From the NCBI GenBank assembly GCA_964486265.1, contig CAZAMW010000002.1:1-30017 (forward strand): 30,017 nucleotides of DNA, read 5' to 3'. A program made the position numbers and the translations under genes. Positions 11,471-18,675 of the stretch are shown here, in pieces. This DNA is from an uncultured Nitrosopumilales archaeon. GTDB taxonomy: Archaea; Thermoproteota; Nitrososphaeria; Nitrososphaerales; Gagatemarchaeaceae. Positions within the stretch are counted from its first letter, which is position 1. Every line of letters starts with the position of its first letter. The notes beneath the pieces are model-generated. The model had not been told where the DNA came from and ran no database searches. It was given only the letters and a program-made list of their open reading frames with translations.

Positions 11471-12859
11471 GTGGTCATGCGGGAGACTGGGATGTACATC
11501 AAGAACGCGCCTGTACTCGTTCGGAACGGAAAGAGCGACGTCGAGAGGCGGGCCAGGCGTCTCTGCCTTGATGCCATAGAGGCGGCGCTTAGTGCTGTAG
11601 AACCATCAAAGCTGGTCAAGTCTAAGGTGCGGGTCAAAGAAGGGAAGCTAATCGCTGATGGCAACAAGATTGATTTGACGAAGTTCAAGAAAGTCTTCGT
11701 CATAGGCGGAGGAAAAGCAGCGCTGCAGATGTCTGAGACCTTGGAATCGATTTTGGGCGACAGGATAGACGGAGGTGTCGTGAATGTCCTGGAGTCCCAG
11801 CTAGCCCCCGGGAATGGTCGACGTATCAGGTTGCATGGAGCAACTCATCCTTTGCCGAGCGCTATGGGGGAAGAAGGAGTCATGGAGATGCTGGAGATGG
11901 TTGGTAGACCGGACCGTGAGACCCTGGTGGTCTGCCTCGTCTCGGGAGGTGGGTCGGCCATGCTGCCACTCCCGGGGGAAGGGGTGAGCCTCTCCGACAA
12001 GGTACAAGTGACGCAGGGCCTTCTTCGGGCAGGAGCGACAATCCAGGAGCTGAACGTGGTCAGAAAGCATCTCTCGGCAATAAAGGGAGGCCGCTTGGCC
12101 CAAAAGCTCTATCCCAGTGTCGTGCTCTCACTCGTAATCTCCGACGTTGTAGGAAATAAGCTGGACTCAGTAGCATCAGGACCGCTCTATCCGGACCCTT
12201 CCACATTCAAGGATGCAGAACGGATTTTGAAGAAATACCGATTGTGGACGACGACGCCCCGGAGGGTGGAGCGCATGATTCAAGATGGTACAGACGGGAA
12301 GATTCCTGAGACCCCGAAACCCGGTTCGAAGTATTTTGAAAGGGTCATCAATGTGATTGTGGGCAGCAACGAGGACGCTTGCAACGCTGCATCGAGATAT
12401 TTCAGCCGCGTGGGATGTAGGTCGACCGTCCTGACCACGAGCTACGAGGGCGAGGCACGTTCTGCAGGAATCTTCATGGGCTCTGTGGTCCAGCATGGCG
12501 GCGCTGGCAGACGTCCCATTAGCTACATCGCAGGAGGGGAAACGACCGTGGTGGTGAAGGGGAGTGGCAAAGGGGGCCGAAATCAGGAGTTCGCTCTTGG
12601 AGCGTCGATGAAAATCGCTGGAAACGGAGGAATTGCACTCGTCTCGCTGGGGACCGATGGGTTGGACGGTCCCACGAACGCGGCAGGCGGTATCGTGGAC
12701 GGTTTCACGGTCTCCAGAGCTACCATCAAAGGTCTTCCAGTCGAGGATTCGTTACTGCGAAACGATAGCTATAGGTTCCTCGAGGAACTCGGGGACCTCG
12801 TCATCACAGGGCCAACCGGTACCAATGTGAACGACATCGTCGTGGCGGTAGCCGTCTAA
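11471..12859 (+). CDS. Glycerate 2-kinase (DUF4147/MOFRL family)
   Basis: IGGGKAA, ATHPLP, VSGGGSA, RKHLSAIKGG, ISDVVG, GGETTV, GGRNQE, GTDGLDGPT and TGPTGTNVND. Confidence 0.92.
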   Translation: MVMRETGMYIKNAPVLVRNGKSDVERRARRLCLDAIEAALSAVEPSKLVKSKVRVKEGKLIADGNKIDLTKFKKVFVIGGGKAALQMSETLESILGDRIDGGVVNVLESQLAPGNGRRIRLHGATHPLPSAMGEEGVMEMLEMVGRPDRETLVVCLVSGGGSAMLPLPGEGVSLSDKVQVTQGLLRAGATIQELNVVRKHLSAIKGGRLAQKLYPSVVLSLVISDVVGNKLDSVASGPLYPDPSTFKDAERILKKYRLWTTTPRRVERMIQDGTDGKIPETPKPGSKYFERVINVIVGSNEDACNAASRYFSRVGCRSTVLTTSYEGEARSAGIFMGSVVQHGGAGRRPISYIAGGETTVVVKGSGKGGRNQEFALGASMKIAGNGGIALVSLGTDGLDGPTNAAGGIVDGFTVSRATIKGLPVEDSLLRNDSYRFLEELGDLVITGPTGTNVNDIVVAVAV

Positions 12860-13554
12860 CCGACAGTTGTGCCCACCTTCTCCCTGTTGACCGCGCGTAT
12901 GACGTTCTCGGGTCTTGCTCCGTTGACTACGACCAGTTTGAGCCTGTTCTCTGCTATCCGTTGTACCGCAACAGGATCTATGATGCTGTGGATGCCAGGC
13001 GAGTGTTTCCCACCGAGTATCTCGACAAGCCTCTCGTATGATACCGTGCGCAAGAGCTTTGCACCGGGATGACTGCGCGGGTCGGCGTCGTAGATCCCCT
13101 CCTGGTCTGATGCCTTTACGATTAGGTCTGACTTCCACGCTTCGGCGACGAGGGTAGCCACGGTATCGGTCGTGATTCCAGGTTTCAACCCTCCCATCAC
13201 CGCGATGTGATTCTTCTCTGCCTTAGAGACCGCCCCCCTTAAGGTAACTGCGACATCATTGGTGCCGAGTGCCATACCGACAAGCCTCGCGTTGAGGCGT
13301 GAAGCCTGAATGGCGATGAGGTCTTGAGTCTTGGGAGGCAGGTCCATTCTCCTCGCCGTATCGATATACTGTCTGGCGGTGGCACCTCCGCCAATGACCA
13401 GCACGACGTTGTGCCCTTGCTTCAGGACCTTCGATATCACGTTGGAGTAGCGTTTCACCACTTCGGGGTCGAGTGGGGAGCCCAGAATCGAGCCACCCAG
13501 CCGCACGACTATCTTCAGAGCAATCGACCTGACAATCTGTGTCCGTTTCAACAT
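12856..13554 (-). CDS. pyrH: UMP kinase
   Basis: IVVRLGGS, VIGGGATAR, MGGLKPGITTD, GIYDADPR and IIDPVA, typical of archaeal PyrH. The exact start is uncertain. Confidence 0.92.
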   Translation of the reverse strand: MLKRTQIVRSIALKIVVRLGGSILGSPLDPEVVKRYSNVISKVLKQGHNVVLVIGGGATARQYIDTARRMDLPPKTQDLIAIQASRLNARLVGMALGTNDVAVTLRGAVSKAEKNHIAVMGGLKPGITTDTVATLVAEAWKSDLIVKASDQEGIYDADPRSHPGAKLLRTVSYERLVEILGGKHSPGIHSIIDPVAVQRIAENRLKLVVVNGARPENVIRAVNREKVGTTVG

Positions 13555-13662
13555 AATGATAGTTCTTATAAAGCAGAGGTGGGCAAAATTGCCCGTCCGT
13601 GACAGCCGTCTGTCCTACTTGCGATAGTAAGCACCTGAGCTGACCCAGAGGTTACCATAGTC

Positions 13663-16428
13663 ATGATTAGCAAGGCTGACTCTGTCAGGTTATACAAGAT
13701 AAGAAAGGCAATCTCAGAACTATCGAGCAAGGAAGGGCGAGGTACGGAACTGGTCTCACTTTACATCCCTCCGAAGAAGCCCGTACACGAAGTAATAGCC
13801 TATCTTAGGAACGAGTGGGGTACTGCCGGGAACATCAAGTCCGACACGACCAGGAATCACGTTCAGGATGCGCTCACAAAGACCATGCAGCGGCTCAAGT
13901 TGTATAGGGAAACGCCTGAGAATGGGCTTGTGATCTTCTCGGGCGCGCTTCCCACGAATGGTCCAGGTAGCGAGGTGATTAGGCTGAACGAAATCGTCCC
14001 ACCCAAGCCCGTCAACACCTTCCTCTACATGTGCCTAGCGCCCGAAACGAAGGTCCTGATGGATGATGGTAGTCAAAAGAGCATGGAGGAGCTTAAGAGT
14101 TCTTGGAAGGATGAAAGAGTGATGTCCTGGAATGCCAACGAGCACGAGCTTCAGGGCAGCATCGTCCGGGACTACCTCCGTATTCCAGCAGGTGACCGAA
14201 AGACATACCGACTGACCGTCGAAAGCGGCAGGAGTATACTGGGAACCGAGGATCATCCCTTCTGGACGGCAAGAGGCTGGGTCAGGCTGGGGCAACTGAG
14301 GAAGGACGACCTCGTCTGTTTGATGCCCGTTGCTGACCTAACAGCCTCCACAGGTGCGCATGAACCAAAGCAGAGGCGCGTGCTTCTCGACGAGGAGTCC
14401 ATACGAAGAGCATCTCATTCTTCCAAGAACGTTGGTCTGGTGATCAGGAGGCTGAAGAAGCAAGGGCTTCTTCCGCTATACACAGATGATCCACGGCTCG
14501 CGATAATCACCAGAATACTCGGGCACCTCTTTAGCGACGGTTCGTTCTATCTCACCGCCGAGAAGAGACGCAGCGGCCCGTATTCTTCGCATGTCTTCGA
14601 CTTTTGTCTTGGAAGCAAGTCCGATGAGGACGAACTCCGCACCGACTTTGCGAAGCTTGGTCGAAAGCTGCCCGCGGGTTTCGAGACTGCCCACAAAATA
14701 AACGTCGAAGGTAGGTCTTACCTCACCCGTACGAGGCACGTGAAACTGCGAGATACAGCAATGGCTGCCTTGTTCAGCGCTCTCGGAGCCCCGGTTGGGG
14801 ACAAAGCGAAGAGGGGAGCGGAGGTCCCATCGTGGTTGGCTGGAAGCTCTCCCGACGTCCTACGGGAGTTCCTGGCCGCATACTTTGGAGGCGATGGGAC
14901 AGTTCCAAGGATTGTTGGCCGGAATCTCGTCAGTCAATCGAGCGTGGGATTCCATAGGGTCATCCAGAAGAAGAGCTCGGGACTGAAGTTTGCGGAGCAG
15001 CTCACTTCCATCTTCTCAAAGCTCGGCATCGCCATCGACGGAATCGATTGTAAACCCGGATACATACGCAAGGATGGCGACCTGACAGTGGAGATTCGCC
15101 TTCGCATTACCATGTCCGAGGGGAACATCCTGAAGCTCTGTCACGGAGTTGGAATCAGATACTGTTCGAGGAAGGCCCTGACCTCTACGCTGGTGGGCGA
15201 GTATCTTCGGATTAAATCCCGAGTGCGCCAGCGGAATAGGGAGAAGGCGGCTATGGCGAAGCGTCTCCGAGAAGATGAGCTGCAGGTCAAGCAGATTGGT
15301 GAATTGCTGGCATCGCCCAACAGGACGGTGACGAATTGGATTCGAGGCACGACTGGTTCGCAGCTCGTAAAGGCCAGTCAGATGCCGACATTCGAGGAAT
15401 GGGCCAGGGTGGCGAGGACGGGTCTGCAGGAGCCTCTGCTGTGGGAAAGCGTGGTGTCAATCGAAAGCGAACAAATCAAGGACGTCAGAGACCTCATGGT
15501 CGACTCCGAAGGGCACAATTTCTTCGCCAATGGTTTCCTCGTCCACAACTGCGACGACCACTTCCACGTAGAGTACCTGCGCGACATGCTGAAGGCCGAG
15601 AAGGTCTACGGCATCCTCGCCCTCGACTCGAACGACGTGGGCATCGGAATCCTCGCCGGTGACAGGCTGGACATCGAGGACGTCATGACATCAGGCATCT
15701 CGGGCAAGACGAGGAAGGGAGGTCAGAGCGCCAGGAGGTACGAACGTGGACGCGAGATGGAGCTCACATACTTCTTTAACAGGGTCTCCGAGCACGTGAC
15801 CAGGATATTCATCAACGACCACAAGGTGAACGGCATCATCGTGGGTGGTCCCGGTCCGACCAAAGACAACTTCCTGAAGGACGGATATCTGGACTACCGT
15901 CTGCAGAACAACATCATCGAGGTCATCGACACCTCCTACGGCGGACGGGAGGGTGTACGGGAGATAGTCGAGAAGGCGGCGGACAAGCTCGAGAACGTAA
16001 GGCTGCTCGAGGAGAAGAAGCTCGTACAGAAGTTCCTCGGAGAGGTGAACCGGACGAACGGTCTCGCCGTCTATGGGCTCCCAAGGATAGTTGACGCCCT
16101 AAGTCGAAGCAATATCGACGTCATCCTGCTCTCGGACGACATCAACACGACCAAGGTCAAGATGACCTGCAAGAAGTGTCAGACGGTCAAGGAGAAGATC
16201 GTGGAGAACAGCAAGAGAATCAAGGTTACGCAGGAGATGCTCGCGGAGCCCTGCGCCAGCTGCGGCTCGACCGATTATGAGCTGGAGGAGGAGGATATCG
16301 TCGACGTGCTCGAGGAGAAGGCGATACAGATCGGCGCCAAGGTGGAGATGATATCCTCCGGGACCGAGGAAGGGATGATGCTTAAGTCATTCGGTGGTGC
16401 GGCGGGCTTCCTAAGGTACAAGATTTAG
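13663..16428 (+). CDS. prf1: Peptide chain release factor aRF1, intein-containing precursor (921 aa; 415 aa after splicing)
   Basis: GTELVSLYIPP, NIKS, GGQSARR, GPGPTK, YGGREG, C-domain Zn ribbon (CKKC/CASC) and FGGAAGFLRY. The YxCxxxF motif is restored by removing residues 124-629. Confidence 0.97.
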   Translation: MISKADSVRLYKIRKAISELSSKEGRGTELVSLYIPPKKPVHEVIAYLRNEWGTAGNIKSDTTRNHVQDALTKTMQRLKLYRETPENGLVIFSGALPTNGPGSEVIRLNEIVPPKPVNTFLYMCLAPETKVLMDDGSQKSMEELKSSWKDERVMSWNANEHELQGSIVRDYLRIPAGDRKTYRLTVESGRSILGTEDHPFWTARGWVRLGQLRKDDLVCLMPVADLTASTGAHEPKQRRVLLDEESIRRASHSSKNVGLVIRRLKKQGLLPLYTDDPRLAIITRILGHLFSDGSFYLTAEKRRSGPYSSHVFDFCLGSKSDEDELRTDFAKLGRKLPAGFETAHKINVEGRSYLTRTRHVKLRDTAMAALFSALGAPVGDKAKRGAEVPSWLAGSSPDVLREFLAAYFGGDGTVPRIVGRNLVSQSSVGFHRVIQKKSSGLKFAEQLTSIFSKLGIAIDGIDCKPGYIRKDGDLTVEIRLRITMSEGNILKLCHGVGIRYCSRKALTSTLVGEYLRIKSRVRQRNREKAAMAKRLREDELQVKQIGELLASPNRTVTNWIRGTTGSQLVKASQMPTFEEWARVARTGLQEPLLWESVVSIESEQIKDVRDLMVDSEGHNFFANGFLVHNCDDHFHVEYLRDMLKAEKVYGILALDSNDVGIGILAGDRLDIEDVMTSGISGKTRKGGQSARRYERGREMELTYFFNRVSEHVTRIFINDHKVNGIIVGGPGPTKDNFLKDGYLDYRLQNNIIEVIDTSYGGREGVREIVEKAADKLENVRLLEEKKLVQKFLGEVNRTNGLAVYGLPRIVDALSRSNIDVILLSDDINTTKVKMTCKKCQTVKEKIVENSKRIKVTQEMLAEPCASCGSTDYELEEEDIVDVLEEKAIQIGAKVEMISSGTEEGMMLKSFGGAAGFLRYKI
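14032..15549 (+). mobile_element. Class 1 intein with LAGLIDADG homing endonuclease and an HTH-like segment (506 aa)
   Basis: Block A CLAPETKVLMDDG, block B GTEDHPF, block C LGHLFSDGS, block E FLAAYFGGDG, blocks F/G VRDLMVD..HNFFANGFLVHN, then +1 Cys. Confidence 0.97.
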
Positions 16429-16479
16429 TCCATCTCCTTCAACTATAAGTAGAACATCAGAGTAGTTAGATCGGGTCCT

Positions 16480-17697
16480 ATGGTTATTCGTATCGGGTTA
16501 ATCGGGAAGACGAATGCTGGGAAGACTACATTATTCAATTCTATGACACTGCAGACGGCTGAGATTTCCAACTATCCCTTCACGACCAAGTCTCCGAACG
16601 AAGGTATCGCTCAAGCGGTGACCCTGTGCGTTCACAAGGAGTTCTCGGTCCAGGACAATCCCAAGAACTCACGGTGTGAGGATGGTTGGCGCTTCATCCC
16701 GATTGAGGTCACGGACCTGCCCGGGCTGATAAAGGGCGCTTGGATGGGTAAGGGGTTGGGGAACCAGTTCCTTTCGGTCGCGGCCCAGTCGGACGCGCTG
16801 CTGCACGTGGTGGATGCTTCGGGTAGTGTCGACAAGGACGGAAGGGTGACGGAGGCGGGTACTGGTGACCCGCTTGCAGATGTCGCTGATGTGGAACTGG
16901 AGCTGGTGCTTTGGTACACCAAACTCTTCACTAGCAACGTAGGCAAGATTGGAAAGCTGGCCAAGCTGCAGGGCTCCGACCTGCCCACCGCCGTAGCGGA
17001 GGTCATGCAGGGGATAGGGGTCCAGAGAGAGCACGTCGTGTATGCGTCGAAGGAGGCCCTTCTGGAGGGGAAGGATGTAGAGAACTGGACCGAGAAGGAG
17101 ACCCAGAACTTCTGCTGGATCCTAAGAGATGTGTCGAAGCCCACCCTTATCATCGCCAATAAGATGGACCTGCCCAATGCAGCAGAGAACTTTCAGAAGC
17201 TCAGAGAGCAGTACAAGGACCTAATCGTAGTTCCTACCAGCGGAGAGGCGGAACTATCTCTGAGAAGGGCTGAACAGAAGGGCCTGATCAAATATGTTCC
17301 GGGGGAAGAAAGGTTTGACGTCATAAAGCCGCAGGAGTTGAGCGACGCGCAACGTACGGCCTTGGCCTACATCAGGAGGAAGGTTTTCGGAGAGTATCTA
17401 CGGACCGGCGTACAGTTCGCACTGAGCATAATGGTGTTCAAACTGCTAAAGATGAACGCCGTCTACCCAGTCGCTGATCCCGAGAAGCTTACCGATAAAA
17501 TCGGGAACGTCCTACCGGACGTATACCTGCTGCCAGCGGGCTCCACGCTCGACGACCTGGCTAGGACAGTCCACACAGACCTTCACAAGGGGTTGCTCTA
17601 CGCCGTCGACGTCAGGACGGGTGTCCATCTCCCGACCGACTACGTGCTGAGGGACAGAGACGTGTTGTCCATAGTCTCCACCGCCAGAAGAGGGTAG
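16480..17697 (+). CDS. ychF: Obg-family translation-associated GTPase (archaeal YchF/Ygr210-like) with TGS domain
   Basis: GKTNAGKTT, NYPFTT, DLPGLIKGA..GKGLGNQFL, ANKMD and C-terminal TGS (ARTVHTDL). Confidence 0.9.
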   Translation: MVIRIGLIGKTNAGKTTLFNSMTLQTAEISNYPFTTKSPNEGIAQAVTLCVHKEFSVQDNPKNSRCEDGWRFIPIEVTDLPGLIKGAWMGKGLGNQFLSVAAQSDALLHVVDASGSVDKDGRVTEAGTGDPLADVADVELELVLWYTKLFTSNVGKIGKLAKLQGSDLPTAVAEVMQGIGVQREHVVYASKEALLEGKDVENWTEKETQNFCWILRDVSKPTLIIANKMDLPNAAENFQKLREQYKDLIVVPTSGEAELSLRRAEQKGLIKYVPGEERFDVIKPQELSDAQRTALAYIRRKVFGEYLRTGVQFALSIMVFKLLKMNAVYPVADPEKLTDKIGNVLPDVYLLPAGSTLDDLARTVHTDLHKGLLYAVDVRTGVHLPTDYVLRDRDVLSIVSTARRG

Positions 17698-17700
17698 GGC

Positions 17701-18675
17701 TTGTCGCAAGAAGAACCGGCGCTTTCTCAACTGATGGTGAGATATCCGTTCACGCCGAGCTCAAGGCTCTTCTTCGACAAACTGCCGATAGAGGAGAGCT
17801 TCTCCAGTCCGGAAGTCCTGAGGCAGAGTGAGAACAGGTTACTGGGAGCCATAAAGAGGCAGAGATACGAGAAGCATCTCTCCGAGCTCATCGAGTTCTC
17901 GAGTTTCTTTGTCGGCGCGCTGATTGCAAGCCAGGACCAGTTTCTCGGGCAGAAGTTCGCGGAGACGGAGAGCTTGACTGCGAAGGGACTCTTCGCAGAG
18001 GAGAAACTCCAAGACAAGCTGGCAATCTTGAGGGAGTGCTTCGAAACAAGACTCTCCCGTTCGGAGATTACTCCCTACGTTTGCAGTATCCCCGTCGTAG
18101 ACTATCTGCGGGCTACGACCAAGTTTGAGCTAAAATCTCAAGCCTGGAAGCTCGTAAACCGTCCTCTTGCAGAGGGGCTGGTCTATTTCACGGAAAATGA
18201 TGTAAACGACTTCTTCAAAAGTCTCTCGGAGAAGATGATCTATAGTGGAGTGAAGAACCTCCGCAAGGTAGCGTTCCCGAAGCAACTGTCCGGTATCCGC
18301 GAGAGGATTGTCCCATATCTTCCGCCACAGAAGGTCAGGTCGAACCGTGGGTACGTGTACATAGAGGAGCTGCTCAATCATCCCGTCTCAGATGGAAGAC
18401 ATAGGTTGACGTGGCTCGTACTTGCGCCCTATCTCGTGAACGTGAAGAAAATGGAAGAAAGTGAGGCGGTGGAGAGGATACGAGGCTTCGTCGCAGCGAA
18501 GGGGGAAATGAGCTCGATGAAACGCTTCATAGAGTATAATGTAAAGAGGGCGAAGAGGAACGGTCTAATGCCTCCGACGCTCGTGAAGCTCAGAACCGAA
18601 CATCCAGACATCTACGCTCTGCTCCCAAAGGAAATCGTCCAGCGATACAGGCAGGGACCTGAAGCCAAGTCCTGA
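17701..18675 (+). CDS. priL: DNA primase large subunit N-domain fused to a PriX-like C-terminal domain
   Basis: N-terminal RYPF and WKLVNRPLAEGLVY (PriL-N). C-terminal YIEELL..DGRHRL..YLVNVK..EA..GLMP resembles Sulfolobus PriX (recalled, not searched). Confidence 0.8.
   Translation: MSQEEPALSQLMVRYPFTPSSRLFFDKLPIEESFSSPEVLRQSENRLLGAIKRQRYEKHLSELIEFSSFFVGALIASQDQFLGQKFAETESLTAKGLFAEEKLQDKLAILRECFETRLSRSEITPYVCSIPVVDYLRATTKFELKSQAWKLVNRPLAEGLVYFTENDVNDFFKSLSEKMIYSGVKNLRKVAFPKQLSGIRERIVPYLPPQKVRSNRGYVYIEELLNHPVSDGRHRLTWLVLAPYLVNVKKMEESEAVERIRGFVAAKGEMSSMKRFIEYNVKRAKRNGLMPPTLVKLRTEHPDIYALLPKEIVQRYRQGPEAKS

What the first reader, a model, noticed from the sequence alone, without database searches (positions are those of the whole stretch)
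14032..15549. Intein inside the YxCxxxF stop-codon-decoding motif of release factor aRF1
Seen: aRF1 is split as FLYM|CLAPET...FLVHN|CDDHF, and excising residues 124-629 gives Y-M-C-D-D-H-F in a normal 415-aa aRF1. Established: YxCxxxF is a conserved N-domain stop-recognition motif of eRF1/aRF1, and most inteins sit in DNA replication/repair or nucleotide-metabolism proteins. Here the motif Cys is itself the +1 nucleophile. I recall no release-factor intein but cannot confirm that. Inference: a rare or new insertion site in an essential translation factor, kept mobile by an apparently intact LAGLIDADG domain.
Basis: partly seen in the sequence, partly recalled or inferred. Interest (0 to 1): 0.85.

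Follow-up and report, generated by a model that had tools for sequence, protein, structure and literature searches.

The report
Mobile intein in archaeal release factor
The only stop-codon release factor gene found in this mine-drainage archaeon is interrupted, at the cysteine of its stop-codon-reading motif, by an ordinary self-splicing, self-copying protein element (an intein); I found no paper describing this insertion site, but it is common in public sequence data.

Summary
ORF 13663-16428 (+) encodes a 921-aa aRF1. Residues 124-629 (nt 14032-15549) are a canonical class-1 intein with a two-motif LAGLIDADG endonuclease. Removing it gives Y-M-C-D-D-H-F, which is what intein-free alleles in sister species read. 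The +1 Cys aligns with Cys127 of human eRF1.

A syntenic contig of the closest species (G015) matches the window at about 90% DNA identity on both sides and lacks only the 1518-nt insert.

All splicing residues are invariant in 58 homologues, and both endonuclease acidic residues are present here. The AlphaFold model is confident (pLDDT 91) and matches solved endonuclease-bearing inteins.

The lineage has been mobile. Intein state changes at least 28 times on a 106-allele extein tree, intein and extein trees conflict, and a roughly 0.9-kb recombination tract abuts the site.

The novelty claim holds only in part. At least 66 database clusters carry this intein at this site, some already auto-labelled "eRF1/intein". 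A second, unrelated intein sits at GGQ|S; this scan has reported that one many times on other DNA. Per genome the site-a intein is rare (9 of 401 in the order). No paper I could search describes it. It is a new member of a known kind, of moderate interest.

The parts
13663..14031 (+). N-extein of aRF1 (aa 1-123), ending ...NTFLYM. NIKS lies at aa 57-60 (nt 13831-13842).
   Evidence: Pfam eRF1_1 covers 15-122. N-extein DNA is 94.6% identical to intein-free G015.
14032..15549 (+). Intein, 506 aa, class 1: Cys1 ... His505-Asn506.
   Evidence: PF14890, TIGR01445 and TIGR01443 match. The empty-site comparison with G015 breaks exactly here. AF2 pLDDT is 90.9. Foldseek best hits are TliVMA, PI-PfuI, PI-PkoII and PI-SceI.
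14032..14346 (+). N-terminal splicing region (intein aa 1-105): block A Cys1, block B T72-E-D-H75.
   Evidence: C1, T72, D74 and H75 are invariant in 58/58 homologues. It matches the Ssp DnaB intein 1mi8 at E 3.6e-16.
14347..15165 (+). Linker plus LAGLIDADG homing-endonuclease domain (intein aa 106-378). Motif 1 is RILGHLFSDGSF (nt 14512-14547, D169). Motif 2 is EFLAAYFGGDGTV (nt 14866-14904, D288).
   Evidence: D169 is D in 53 and E in 3 of 58; D288 is D in 53 of 58; the window has D/D. The domain fold matches I-DmoI with TMt 0.66-0.70. The Pfam LAGLIDADG_3 hit is only 18.2 bits, below the 22.5 cut-off.
15166..15426 (+). Helical, HTH-like region of the intein (aa 379-465), probably an accessory DNA-binding module.
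   Evidence: AF2 predicts helices 379-414, 419-426, 430-438 and 454-462. There is a weak HTH_23 hit, E 0.0019 and below cut-off. The region is conserved in the uS12 intein homologue.
15427..15549 (+). C-terminal splicing region (intein aa 466-506): block F (VRDLMV..H495) and block G (NGFLVHN).
   Evidence: V485, D487, H495, F497, A499-F502, H505 and N506 are invariant in 58/58. The window has T489M at a position that is T in 56 of 58.
15550..16428 (+). C-extein of aRF1 (aa 630-921 plus stop). The +1 Cys codon is at 15550-15552 (equivalent to eRF1 C127). GGQ is at nt 15718-15726.
   Evidence: eRF1_2 and eRF1_3 match. TIGR03676 scores 289 bits on the C-extein alone.
15618..16517 (.). Mosaic tract. 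DNA identity to the syntenic intein-free G015 locus falls to 0.76-0.86 here, against 0.88-0.97 on both sides. One end lies within 90 nt of the intein site and the other at the end of the gene.
   Evidence: Sliding identity and three-way comparison with G012, G009, G001 and G014. The differences are mostly synonymous: 119 synonymous against 22 non-synonymous codons in the C-extein.

Best explanation
This is a selfish class-1 intein with a nested LAGLIDADG homing endonuclease, inserted between Met123 and Cys124 of aRF1. After translation, the 921-aa precursor should splice by the standard four steps. First, an N-S acyl shift occurs at intein Cys1. Second, the N-extein is transferred onto the thiol of the +1 Cys, which is the Cys of YxCxxxF. 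Third, Asn506 cyclises, aided by His505, and releases the intein. Fourth, an S-N shift forms the normal peptide bond. The products are a normal 415-aa aRF1 and a free 506-aa intein. The free intein, through its endonuclease and HTH-like domains, is expected to cut intein-free aRF1 alleles at ...TACATG|TGCGAC.... Repair from the intein-bearing copy then spreads the element. Shown here: the insertion, its exact boundaries, intact catalytic residues, the fold, the empty site in a sister species, and an evolutionary pattern of repeated gain and loss with lateral movement. Inferred, not shown: that this copy actually splices (very likely, since this is the only aRF1 found and its exteins are under strong purifying selection), and that this copy's endonuclease is still active (about even odds or a little better).
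For: The domain layout and family models pass their cut-offs. Cys1, TxxH, block F Asp and His, the terminal His-Asn and the +1 Cys are invariant in 58/58 full-length homologues, and the junctions are kept in all 66 homologues including the minis. The AF2 model has pLDDT 90.9 and pTM 0.88. Foldseek gives TliVMA 7qss at E 4e-16, PI-PfuI at 1.5e-14, PI-PkoII and PI-SceI; the endonuclease domain matches I-DmoI, and the splicing domain matches NpuDnaB and Mtu RecA at about 2 A. For the empty site, window 12000-14033 and 15539-17912 align contiguously to G015 at 92% and 89%, and the G015 target is 56/60 identical to the joined exteins. The exteins differ from G015 at 139 synonymous and 22 non-synonymous codons. 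Only one aRF1 was found in the genome; the other eRF1-domain hit is Pelota-like. Evidence of mobility: at least 28 state changes on a 106-allele extein tree, with the window's sister allele intein-free. AU tests reject congruence of intein and extein trees (p 1.5e-8 and 8e-6). The endonuclease region is as conserved as the splicing region (0.48 against 0.51), and 51 of 58 keep both acidic residues. Mini-inteins occur at the same site. A recombination tract abuts the site. Contigs from two independent metagenome runs reproduce the sequence.
Against: No experimental evidence of splicing or DNA cleavage exists. The Pfam LAGLIDADG_3 score is below its cut-off (18.2 against 22.5). The window's copy has 7 substitutions at the 104 columns that are at least 90% conserved, against 2 in each clade-mate. 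These include A71G next to block B and T489M in block F, and its terminal branch is longer, which could mean relaxed constraint. The AU-test groups were chosen after seeing the trees. The intein-bearing and intein-free alleles on the tree come from differently biased samples. The direction of the recombination event (gain here or loss in G015) is undetermined. The genome is only 70% complete, so a second release factor cannot be excluded.
Confidence: 0.88

Rival explanations
1. The intein still splices but has lost mobility. In this copy the endonuclease no longer cuts, and the element persists only because imprecise loss would destroy an essential gene. This is the late stage of the homing cycle.
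For: The window's copy has 7 deviations at conserved columns against 2 in clade-mates, and a long terminal branch. In the family, 7 of 58 full-length copies have lost an acidic residue and 8 of 66 are mini-inteins, so decay does happen at this site. The LAGLIDADG_3 score is below its cut-off.
Against: Both catalytic Asp residues and both LAGLIDADG helices are present, and none of the 7 deviations hits a known catalytic position. The whole endonuclease domain folds with high confidence. The endonuclease region is as conserved as the splicing region across the family.
Confidence: 0.35
2. The intein acts as a regulatory, conditional splicing switch. Splicing, and so the supply of active aRF1, responds to redox state or metal ions in the acid-mine-drainage habitat, for example through a Cys1-Cys+1 disulfide or Zn/Cu inhibition. 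This would tune translation termination.
For: Cys1 and the +1 Cys are adjacent thiols. The host protein appears to be the only release factor. The habitat is mine drainage. Conditional splicing of other inteins is known from the literature (from my own knowledge, not tested here).
Against: Presence or absence flips between near-identical alleles: the sister species G015, 95% identical in extein, lacks the intein. It occurs in only 9 of 401 genomes of the order. Its relatives sit in many unrelated hosts. This is the pattern of a selfish element, not of a conserved regulator. Nothing in the sequence points specifically to a sensor.
Confidence: 0.06
3. The aRF1 gene is disabled and the precursor does not splice. 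Termination is carried out by another release factor encoded in the unassembled 30% of the genome.
For: The genome is 70% complete. A congener (G006) has a second, divergent aRF1 paralogue.
Against: The reading frame is uninterrupted over 921 codons. All splicing residues are intact. The exteins show strong purifying selection, with 139 synonymous against 22 non-synonymous differences. The G006 paralogue lacks NIKS, YxCxxxF and GGQ (it reads EIKS, FDIDDHF and GGW), so it is unlikely to be a standard replacement. No such paralogue was found in this genome.
Confidence: 0.03
4. The insertion is an assembly or binning artefact, a chimeric contig.
For: The source is a MAG of 309 contigs. Logan contigs at about 4x depth break near the N-terminal junction.
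Against: The insert is in frame with canonical junctions. Contigs from two runs reproduce it and cross the C-terminal junction. The same architecture occurs in more than 60 independent database clusters, including a closed 2.25-Mb genome.
Confidence: 0.01

Closest known systems
Archaeal class-1 inteins with a LAGLIDADG endonuclease and solved structures: TliVMA (7qss), PI-PfuI (1dq3), PI-PkoII (2cw7) and yeast PI-SceI (1vde)
   Same: They share the bipartite build of a HINT splicing domain interrupted by a two-motif LAGLIDADG endonuclease plus an accessory DNA-binding region. They also share Cys1, TxxH and a terminal His-Asn. They are the best Foldseek matches (E 4e-16 to 3e-11).
   Different: The host proteins and sites differ (V-ATPase, RNR, PolB). 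Sequence identity is only 12-16%. The relative domain placement differs (global TM about 0.3).
Intein of intein-containing RtcB family proteins (NCBIfam NF038162), and the related inteins in RpoB and uS12
   Same: Homology runs the full length of the intein, covering the splicing, endonuclease and HTH-like regions. NF038162 matches aa 120-631 at E 2.7e-65. The uS12 intein is 30% identical over 506 aa at E 1e-68. The nearest profile hits are in RpoB, uS12, thioredoxin, RtcB and RpoA.
   Different: The host gene and target site differ, so the endonuclease must have a different DNA specificity. The uS12 intein ends in Lys-Asn instead of His-Asn.
The aRF1 intein at the GGQ|S site ('site b'), common in Nitrososphaerales-type (Thaumarchaeota) and DPANN archaea and reported repeatedly by this scan on other DNA
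   Same: It has the same host protein and also sits inside a catalytic motif. Both inteins occur together in about 14 database proteins of roughly 1450 aa.
   Different: It is a different site (after Gln182, with Ser as +1) and an unrelated intein lineage with HTH_3 + LAGLIDADG_3. BLASTP finds no similarity beyond the terminal motifs (E 0.078). The window's gene has no site-b intein.
Ssp/Npu DnaB and Mtu RecA inteins (1mi8, 4o1r, 3ifj)
   Same: These are the closest solved relatives of the splicing domain by sequence (E 3.6e-16) and by fold (rmsd about 2 A).
   Different: The solved forms are bacterial mini-inteins or inteins with the endonuclease deleted, and the host proteins differ.

Membership tests
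Class-1 intein (HINT splicing domain) | Nucleophile (Cys/Ser) at intein position 1 | tested here: met
   Cys1 is present and invariant in 58/58 homologues.
Class-1 intein (HINT splicing domain) | Block B Thr-x-x-His | tested here: met
   T72-E-D-H75; T72, D74 and H75 are invariant in 58/58.
Class-1 intein (HINT splicing domain) | Blocks F and G, with a penultimate His and a terminal Asn | tested here: met
   D487, H495, H505 and N506 are invariant in 58/58. The window has T489M at a non-catalytic block F position.
Class-1 intein (HINT splicing domain) | Cys/Ser/Thr at extein position +1 | tested here: met
   Cys at +1 in all 66 site-a homologues. It aligns with eRF1 C127.
Class-1 intein (HINT splicing domain) | In-frame insertion in a conserved host site, with intein-free homologues contiguous across the site | tested here: met
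   There are 27 intein-free alleles reading Y-x-C-D-D-H-F/Y. The syntenic empty site in G015 is shown.
Class-1 intein (HINT splicing domain) | HINT fold | tested here: met
   AF2 pLDDT is 90.9. The Foldseek match to DnaB and RecA inteins has rmsd about 2 A, TMt about 0.6.
Class-1 intein (HINT splicing domain) | Demonstrated protein splicing | not testable with these tools
   This needs expression with Western blot or mass spectrometry.
LAGLIDADG homing endonuclease (single-chain, two-motif) | Two LAGLIDADG helices, each ending in a conserved acidic residue | tested here: met
   RILGHLFSD169G and FLAAYFGGD288G are present, and 51 of 58 homologues keep both acidic residues.
LAGLIDADG homing endonuclease (single-chain, two-motif) | Alpha-beta-beta-alpha-beta-beta-alpha pseudo-dimeric fold | tested here: met
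   The secondary-structure order fits. The domain matches I-DmoI (TMt 0.66-0.70) and I-Tsp061I.
LAGLIDADG homing endonuclease (single-chain, two-motif) | Curated family model over its cut-off | tested here: inconclusive
   PF14528 scores 18.2 bits against a 22.5 cut-off, E 0.0029. Some homologues do carry the precomputed Pfam hit.
LAGLIDADG homing endonuclease (single-chain, two-motif) | Site-specific cleavage of the intein-free allele | not testable with these tools
   This needs an in vitro cleavage assay. The natural candidate target is in G015.
aRF1/eRF1 class-I release factor | Equivalog model TIGR03676 over its cut-off, with three eRF1 domains | tested here: met
   It scores 429 bits against 234.7, and eRF1_1, eRF1_2 and eRF1_3 all match.
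aRF1/eRF1 class-I release factor | NIKS, YxCxxxF (after splicing) and GGQ motifs | tested here: met
   NIKS is at aa 57-60, Y-M-C-D-D-H-F spans the splice junction, and GGQ is at C-extein aa 57-59.

The most novel reading that the evidence does not exclude
The intein is more than a parasite. Because Cys1 and the +1 Cys of the stop-codon-reading motif must both be free thiols, splicing of the cell's only release factor would respond to redox state or metals in acid mine drainage. This would give a post-translational throttle on translation termination. The same could hold for the related inteins in the uS12 decoding loop and at the aRF1 GGQ site.
Probability: 0.06. Interest if true: 0.75.

Novelty: new member of a known kind. 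Interest (0 to 1): 0.38.

Why it matters
The finding adds a translation-termination factor to the list of intein hosts, which is dominated by replication, repair and nucleotide-metabolism proteins. It also fits the rule that inteins settle in the most conserved functional motifs. In aRF1, two unrelated inteins sit in the stop-codon-reading motif (YxC) and in the peptide-release motif (GGQ). The locus offers a clean natural system for studying the homing cycle: full-length, endonuclease-mutated, mini and empty alleles occur among very close relatives, and a recombination tract lies next to the site. It also provides a candidate new LAGLIDADG specificity with a known natural target. It does not change how inteins or release factors are thought to work.

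Tried and rejected
- **Literature.** Nine full-text searches were run: intein with aRF1, peptide chain release factor, eRF1, GGQ, Nitrososphaera, Thaumarchaeota, and release factor plus archaea, plus one search for the intein-clustering survey and one for YxCxxxF. None turned up a paper on an aRF1/eRF1 intein. The intein surveys PMC4760082, PMC5784728 and PMC10710043 do not mention release factors in their main text. The supplement of PMC4760082 is not held. InBase could not be queried.
- **Second release factor in this genome.** The only other eRF1-domain hit (contig C14) is Pelota-like.
- **Common origin of the two aRF1 inteins.** Rejected; they show no similarity beyond the terminal motifs.
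- **Intein-free allele in the source metagenomes.** No intein-skipping contig was found, but depth is about 4x and only assembled contigs were available, so this is uninformative.
- **Compositional evidence of foreign origin.** Overall GC is the same in intein and exteins (0.555 against 0.554). Only GC3 is lower in the intein (0.652 against 0.776), which may simply reflect weaker codon optimisation.
- **Similarity of the N-extein end (VNTFLYM) to the intein end (ANGFLVHN).** Noticed through overlapping BLAST alignments and judged probably chance.
- **Direction of the recombination event.** It could not be settled. The G015 tract looks somewhat more foreign, but the evidence is weak.
Full report
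**Observation**

The window holds one long ORF, 13663-16428 on the + strand, of 921 aa.
- Pfam places eRF1 domain 1 at residues 15-122, an intein splicing domain across 131-629, and eRF1 domains 2 and 3 at 649-921.
- The NCBIfam aRF1 equivalog TIGR03676 scores 429 bits against a cut-off of 234.7. The intein N-terminal and C-terminal models both pass their cut-offs.
- Removing it gives a 415-aa protein reading Y-M-C-D-D-H-F.
- Twenty-seven intein-free aRF1 alleles fetched from related genomes read PKPVNTFLYMCDDHFHVEYL, or close variants, without interruption.
- Aligned to human eRF1 (PDB 1dt9), the intein-free orthologue places this Cys on C127 of Y125-x-C127-x-x-x-F131. That motif is documented as a stop-codon-recognition element (PMC3632111, PMC4381064).

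So the +1 nucleophile is the motif cysteine.

**Empty-site proof**

A contig of the closest species representative (G015; extein 95% identical in protein) is syntenic with the window.
- Window 12000-14033 aligns at 92.2% and window 15539-17912 at 88.8%, and the two blocks are contiguous in G015.
- The only structural difference is the 1518-nt insert.
- G015's uninterrupted site matches the window's joined extein DNA at 56 of 60 nt, and at 23 of 24 around the junction. It is a plausible natural target for the endonuclease.

**Anatomy of the intein**

I aligned 58 full-length homologues from the same aRF1 site (alignment A1).
- Invariant in all 58: Cys1, T72, D74 and H75 (block B), D487 and H495 (block F), and H505-N506 (block G). 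The +1 Cys and the HN|C junction are kept in all 66 homologues, including the mini-inteins.
- Two LAGLIDADG motifs are present, RILGHLFSD169G and EFLAAYFGGD288G. Both acidic residues are kept in 51 of 58 homologues, and both are Asp in the window.
- The endonuclease region is about as conserved as the splicing region. Mean identity to the window is 0.48 against 0.51.
- An AlphaFold2 model built on this alignment is confident (pLDDT 90.9, pTM 0.88).
- Foldseek's best PDB matches are endonuclease-bearing inteins: TliVMA 7qss at E 4e-16, then PI-PfuI, PI-PkoII and PI-SceI. The endonuclease domain matches I-DmoI (TMt 0.66-0.70). The splicing domain matches the NpuDnaB, Mtu RecA and Ssp DnaB inteins at about 2 A. 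By sequence, the Ssp DnaB intein is the best solved match.
- Between the endonuclease and the C-terminal splicing strands lies a helical, weakly HTH-like region (aa 379-465). It is probably an accessory DNA-binding module.

There are three caveats. The Pfam LAGLIDADG_3 hit is below its cut-off. The window's copy has seven substitutions at columns that are at least 90% conserved, against two in each clade-mate. None of these is catalytic, but A71G lies next to block B and T489M lies in block F.

**Is this the working release factor?**

- In the window's genome (1.7 Mb, 309 contigs, 70% complete) the only other eRF1-domain hit is Pelota-like.
- The exteins differ from G015 at 139 synonymous and only 22 non-synonymous codons. 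That is strong purifying selection.
- Together with the intact splicing residues, this makes splicing very likely, though it is not shown.
- Contigs from two mine-drainage metagenome runs reproduce the sequence and cross the C-terminal junction. An assembly artefact is therefore unlikely.

**How common is it?**

- *In protein databases it is not rare.* A word-indexed search of 5.8 billion proteins returned more than 100 aRF1 proteins with inteins. Mapping them on the spliced extein shows two sites.
  - Site a lies after residue 123 (Y-x|C), the window's site. It has 66 clusters: 58 full-length (about 500-510 aa) and 8 mini-inteins (185-250 aa).
  - Site b lies after Gln182 (GGQ|S). It has 50 clusters with an unrelated intein carrying HTH_3 and LAGLIDADG_3 domains, and it also occurs in DPANN archaea. 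BLASTP finds no similarity between the two inteins beyond the terminal motifs.
  - About 14 proteins carry both inteins. JGI's automatic names already read 'eRF1/intein/homing endonuclease' for some of them.
  - This scan has reported the GGQ-site intein many times on other DNA. For the YxC site, the sequence look-up returned only another reading of this same stretch, and the word searches listed none.
- *Per genome it is rare.*
  - Family: 8 of 97 species representatives, counting the window's own genome, carry it, in 4 of 10 genera; one of the eight is a mini-intein.
  - Order: 9 of 401, in two families.
  - Phylum: none of 400 further genomes sampled.
- *In the literature I found nothing.* Nine full-text searches and three intein surveys gave no mention of a release-factor intein. 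InBase could not be checked.

**Evidence that the lineage moves**

1. On an extein tree of 106 alleles, the intein state (present or absent) needs at least 28 changes, 24 of them forced by well-supported branches. The window's sister allele is the intein-free G015. The intein-bearing and intein-free samples come from different sources, so the count is a rough lower bound, not a rate.
2. Intein and extein trees conflict. The window's extein groups with P0007 and P0008 (90% identity), but its intein groups with P0003, P0005 and P0006. The inteins of P0007 and P0008 are only 60% identical to it. AU tests reject each tree on the other's data (p 1.5e-8 and 8e-6), although I named the groups after seeing the trees.
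3. All stages of the homing cycle occur at this site among close relatives: full-length, endonuclease-mutated, mini and empty.
4. DNA identity between the window and G015 is mosaic.
   - It is 0.88-0.95 upstream and through the first 68 nt or so of the C-extein. It drops to 0.76-0.86 over 15618-16517, then returns to 0.91-0.97.
   - Within the tract, the window is no closer to G015 than to the outgroup G012 (0.813 against 0.815). G015 is the more distant from all the others.
   - Most of the differences are synonymous.
   - This is a recombination tract with one end within 90 nt of the insertion site. That would be expected from co-conversion during intein gain, or from intein loss by recombination with an empty allele. 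Which lineage was converted is not settled.

**Relatives of the intein**

- A profile search of 1.84 billion cluster representatives found 411 at E 1e-30 or better.
- Among the 38 nearest non-aRF1 hosts, 14 are RpoB, 9 are ribosomal protein uS12 and 5 are thioredoxins. The rest include RtcB, RpoA, Pus10, MCM and HerA.
- The uS12 intein is 30% identical over the full length.
- NCBIfam's RtcB-intein model matches the whole intein at E 2.7e-65.

The aRF1-a intein is therefore one branch of a widespread archaeal intein lineage that has colonised many information-processing proteins.

**Mechanism and verdict**

The best reading (confidence about 0.88) is a standard selfish class-1 intein.
- Splicing should proceed by acyl shift at Cys1, transfer of the N-extein to the +1 Cys, cyclisation of Asn506 and a final S-N shift. 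This restores the YxCxxxF motif.
- The free intein's LAGLIDADG domain would then cut empty aRF1 alleles and spread by repair.
- That this particular copy's endonuclease is still active is roughly even odds, given its mildly accelerated divergence.
- A regulatory 'conditional splicing' role is not excluded, but the patchy, fast-turnover distribution argues against it (about 0.06).

It is a new member, at an undescribed insertion site, of a well-known kind of element.

Noticed in passing
L044 (G006:C1:595892-597136, minus strand), another genome of the same genus: This closed 2.25-Mb genome has an intein-bearing aRF1 and also a second 415-aa aRF1 paralogue, about 44% identical. All three signature motifs are changed: NIKS to EIKS, YxCxxxF to F-D-I-D-D-H-F, and GGQ to GGW. 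It was not found in the window's genome.
   Followed up: partly
L043 (G010:C124:4950-5665): MAG G010 holds an intein-bearing aRF1 on contig C23 and also an intein-free aRF1 fragment (...FLYMCDDHF...) at a contig end. This could be mixed strains in the bin or a population polymorphic for the intein.
   Followed up: partly
P0106 and about 9 further database proteins; G012:C197, G032:C1 and G061:C4 (663-aa frames), plus shorter frames of 617-657 aa in G068, G069, G070 and G087: A full-length homologue of this intein (30% identity, E 1e-68) interrupts ribosomal protein uS12 at ...PNSAIRK|C...KN|CVRTQL, next to the conserved PNSA decoding-centre loop. It ends in Lys-Asn instead of His-Asn. I know of no description of a uS12 intein.
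   Followed up: partly
G000 contigs C26, C30, C114, C204, C208, C234, C245: The window's 70%-complete genome carries intein splicing-domain hits in 9 other frames on 7 contigs, so it is intein-rich. The hosts were not identified.
   Followed up: no
window 15618-16517: Identity to the syntenic G015 locus drops from about 93% to about 81% over roughly 0.9 kb, with the differences mostly synonymous. The tract starts just 3' of the intein site and ends at the end of the aRF1 gene, which makes it a recombination mosaic.
   Followed up: yes
window 14011-14031 vs 15526-15549: The last residues of the N-extein (VNTFLYM) resemble the last residues of the intein (ANGFLVHN) closely enough that BLAST alignments of the C-extein start 6 residues early in most homologues. 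This is probably chance or shared beta-strand character.
   Followed up: no
window 12856-13554 (-) and 16480-17697 (+): The neighbouring genes are ordinary: an amino-acid-kinase-family gene (probably uridylate kinase) upstream on the opposite strand, and an Obg-like GTPase with YGR210-like and TGS domains downstream. Both are syntenic in G015.
   Followed up: partly
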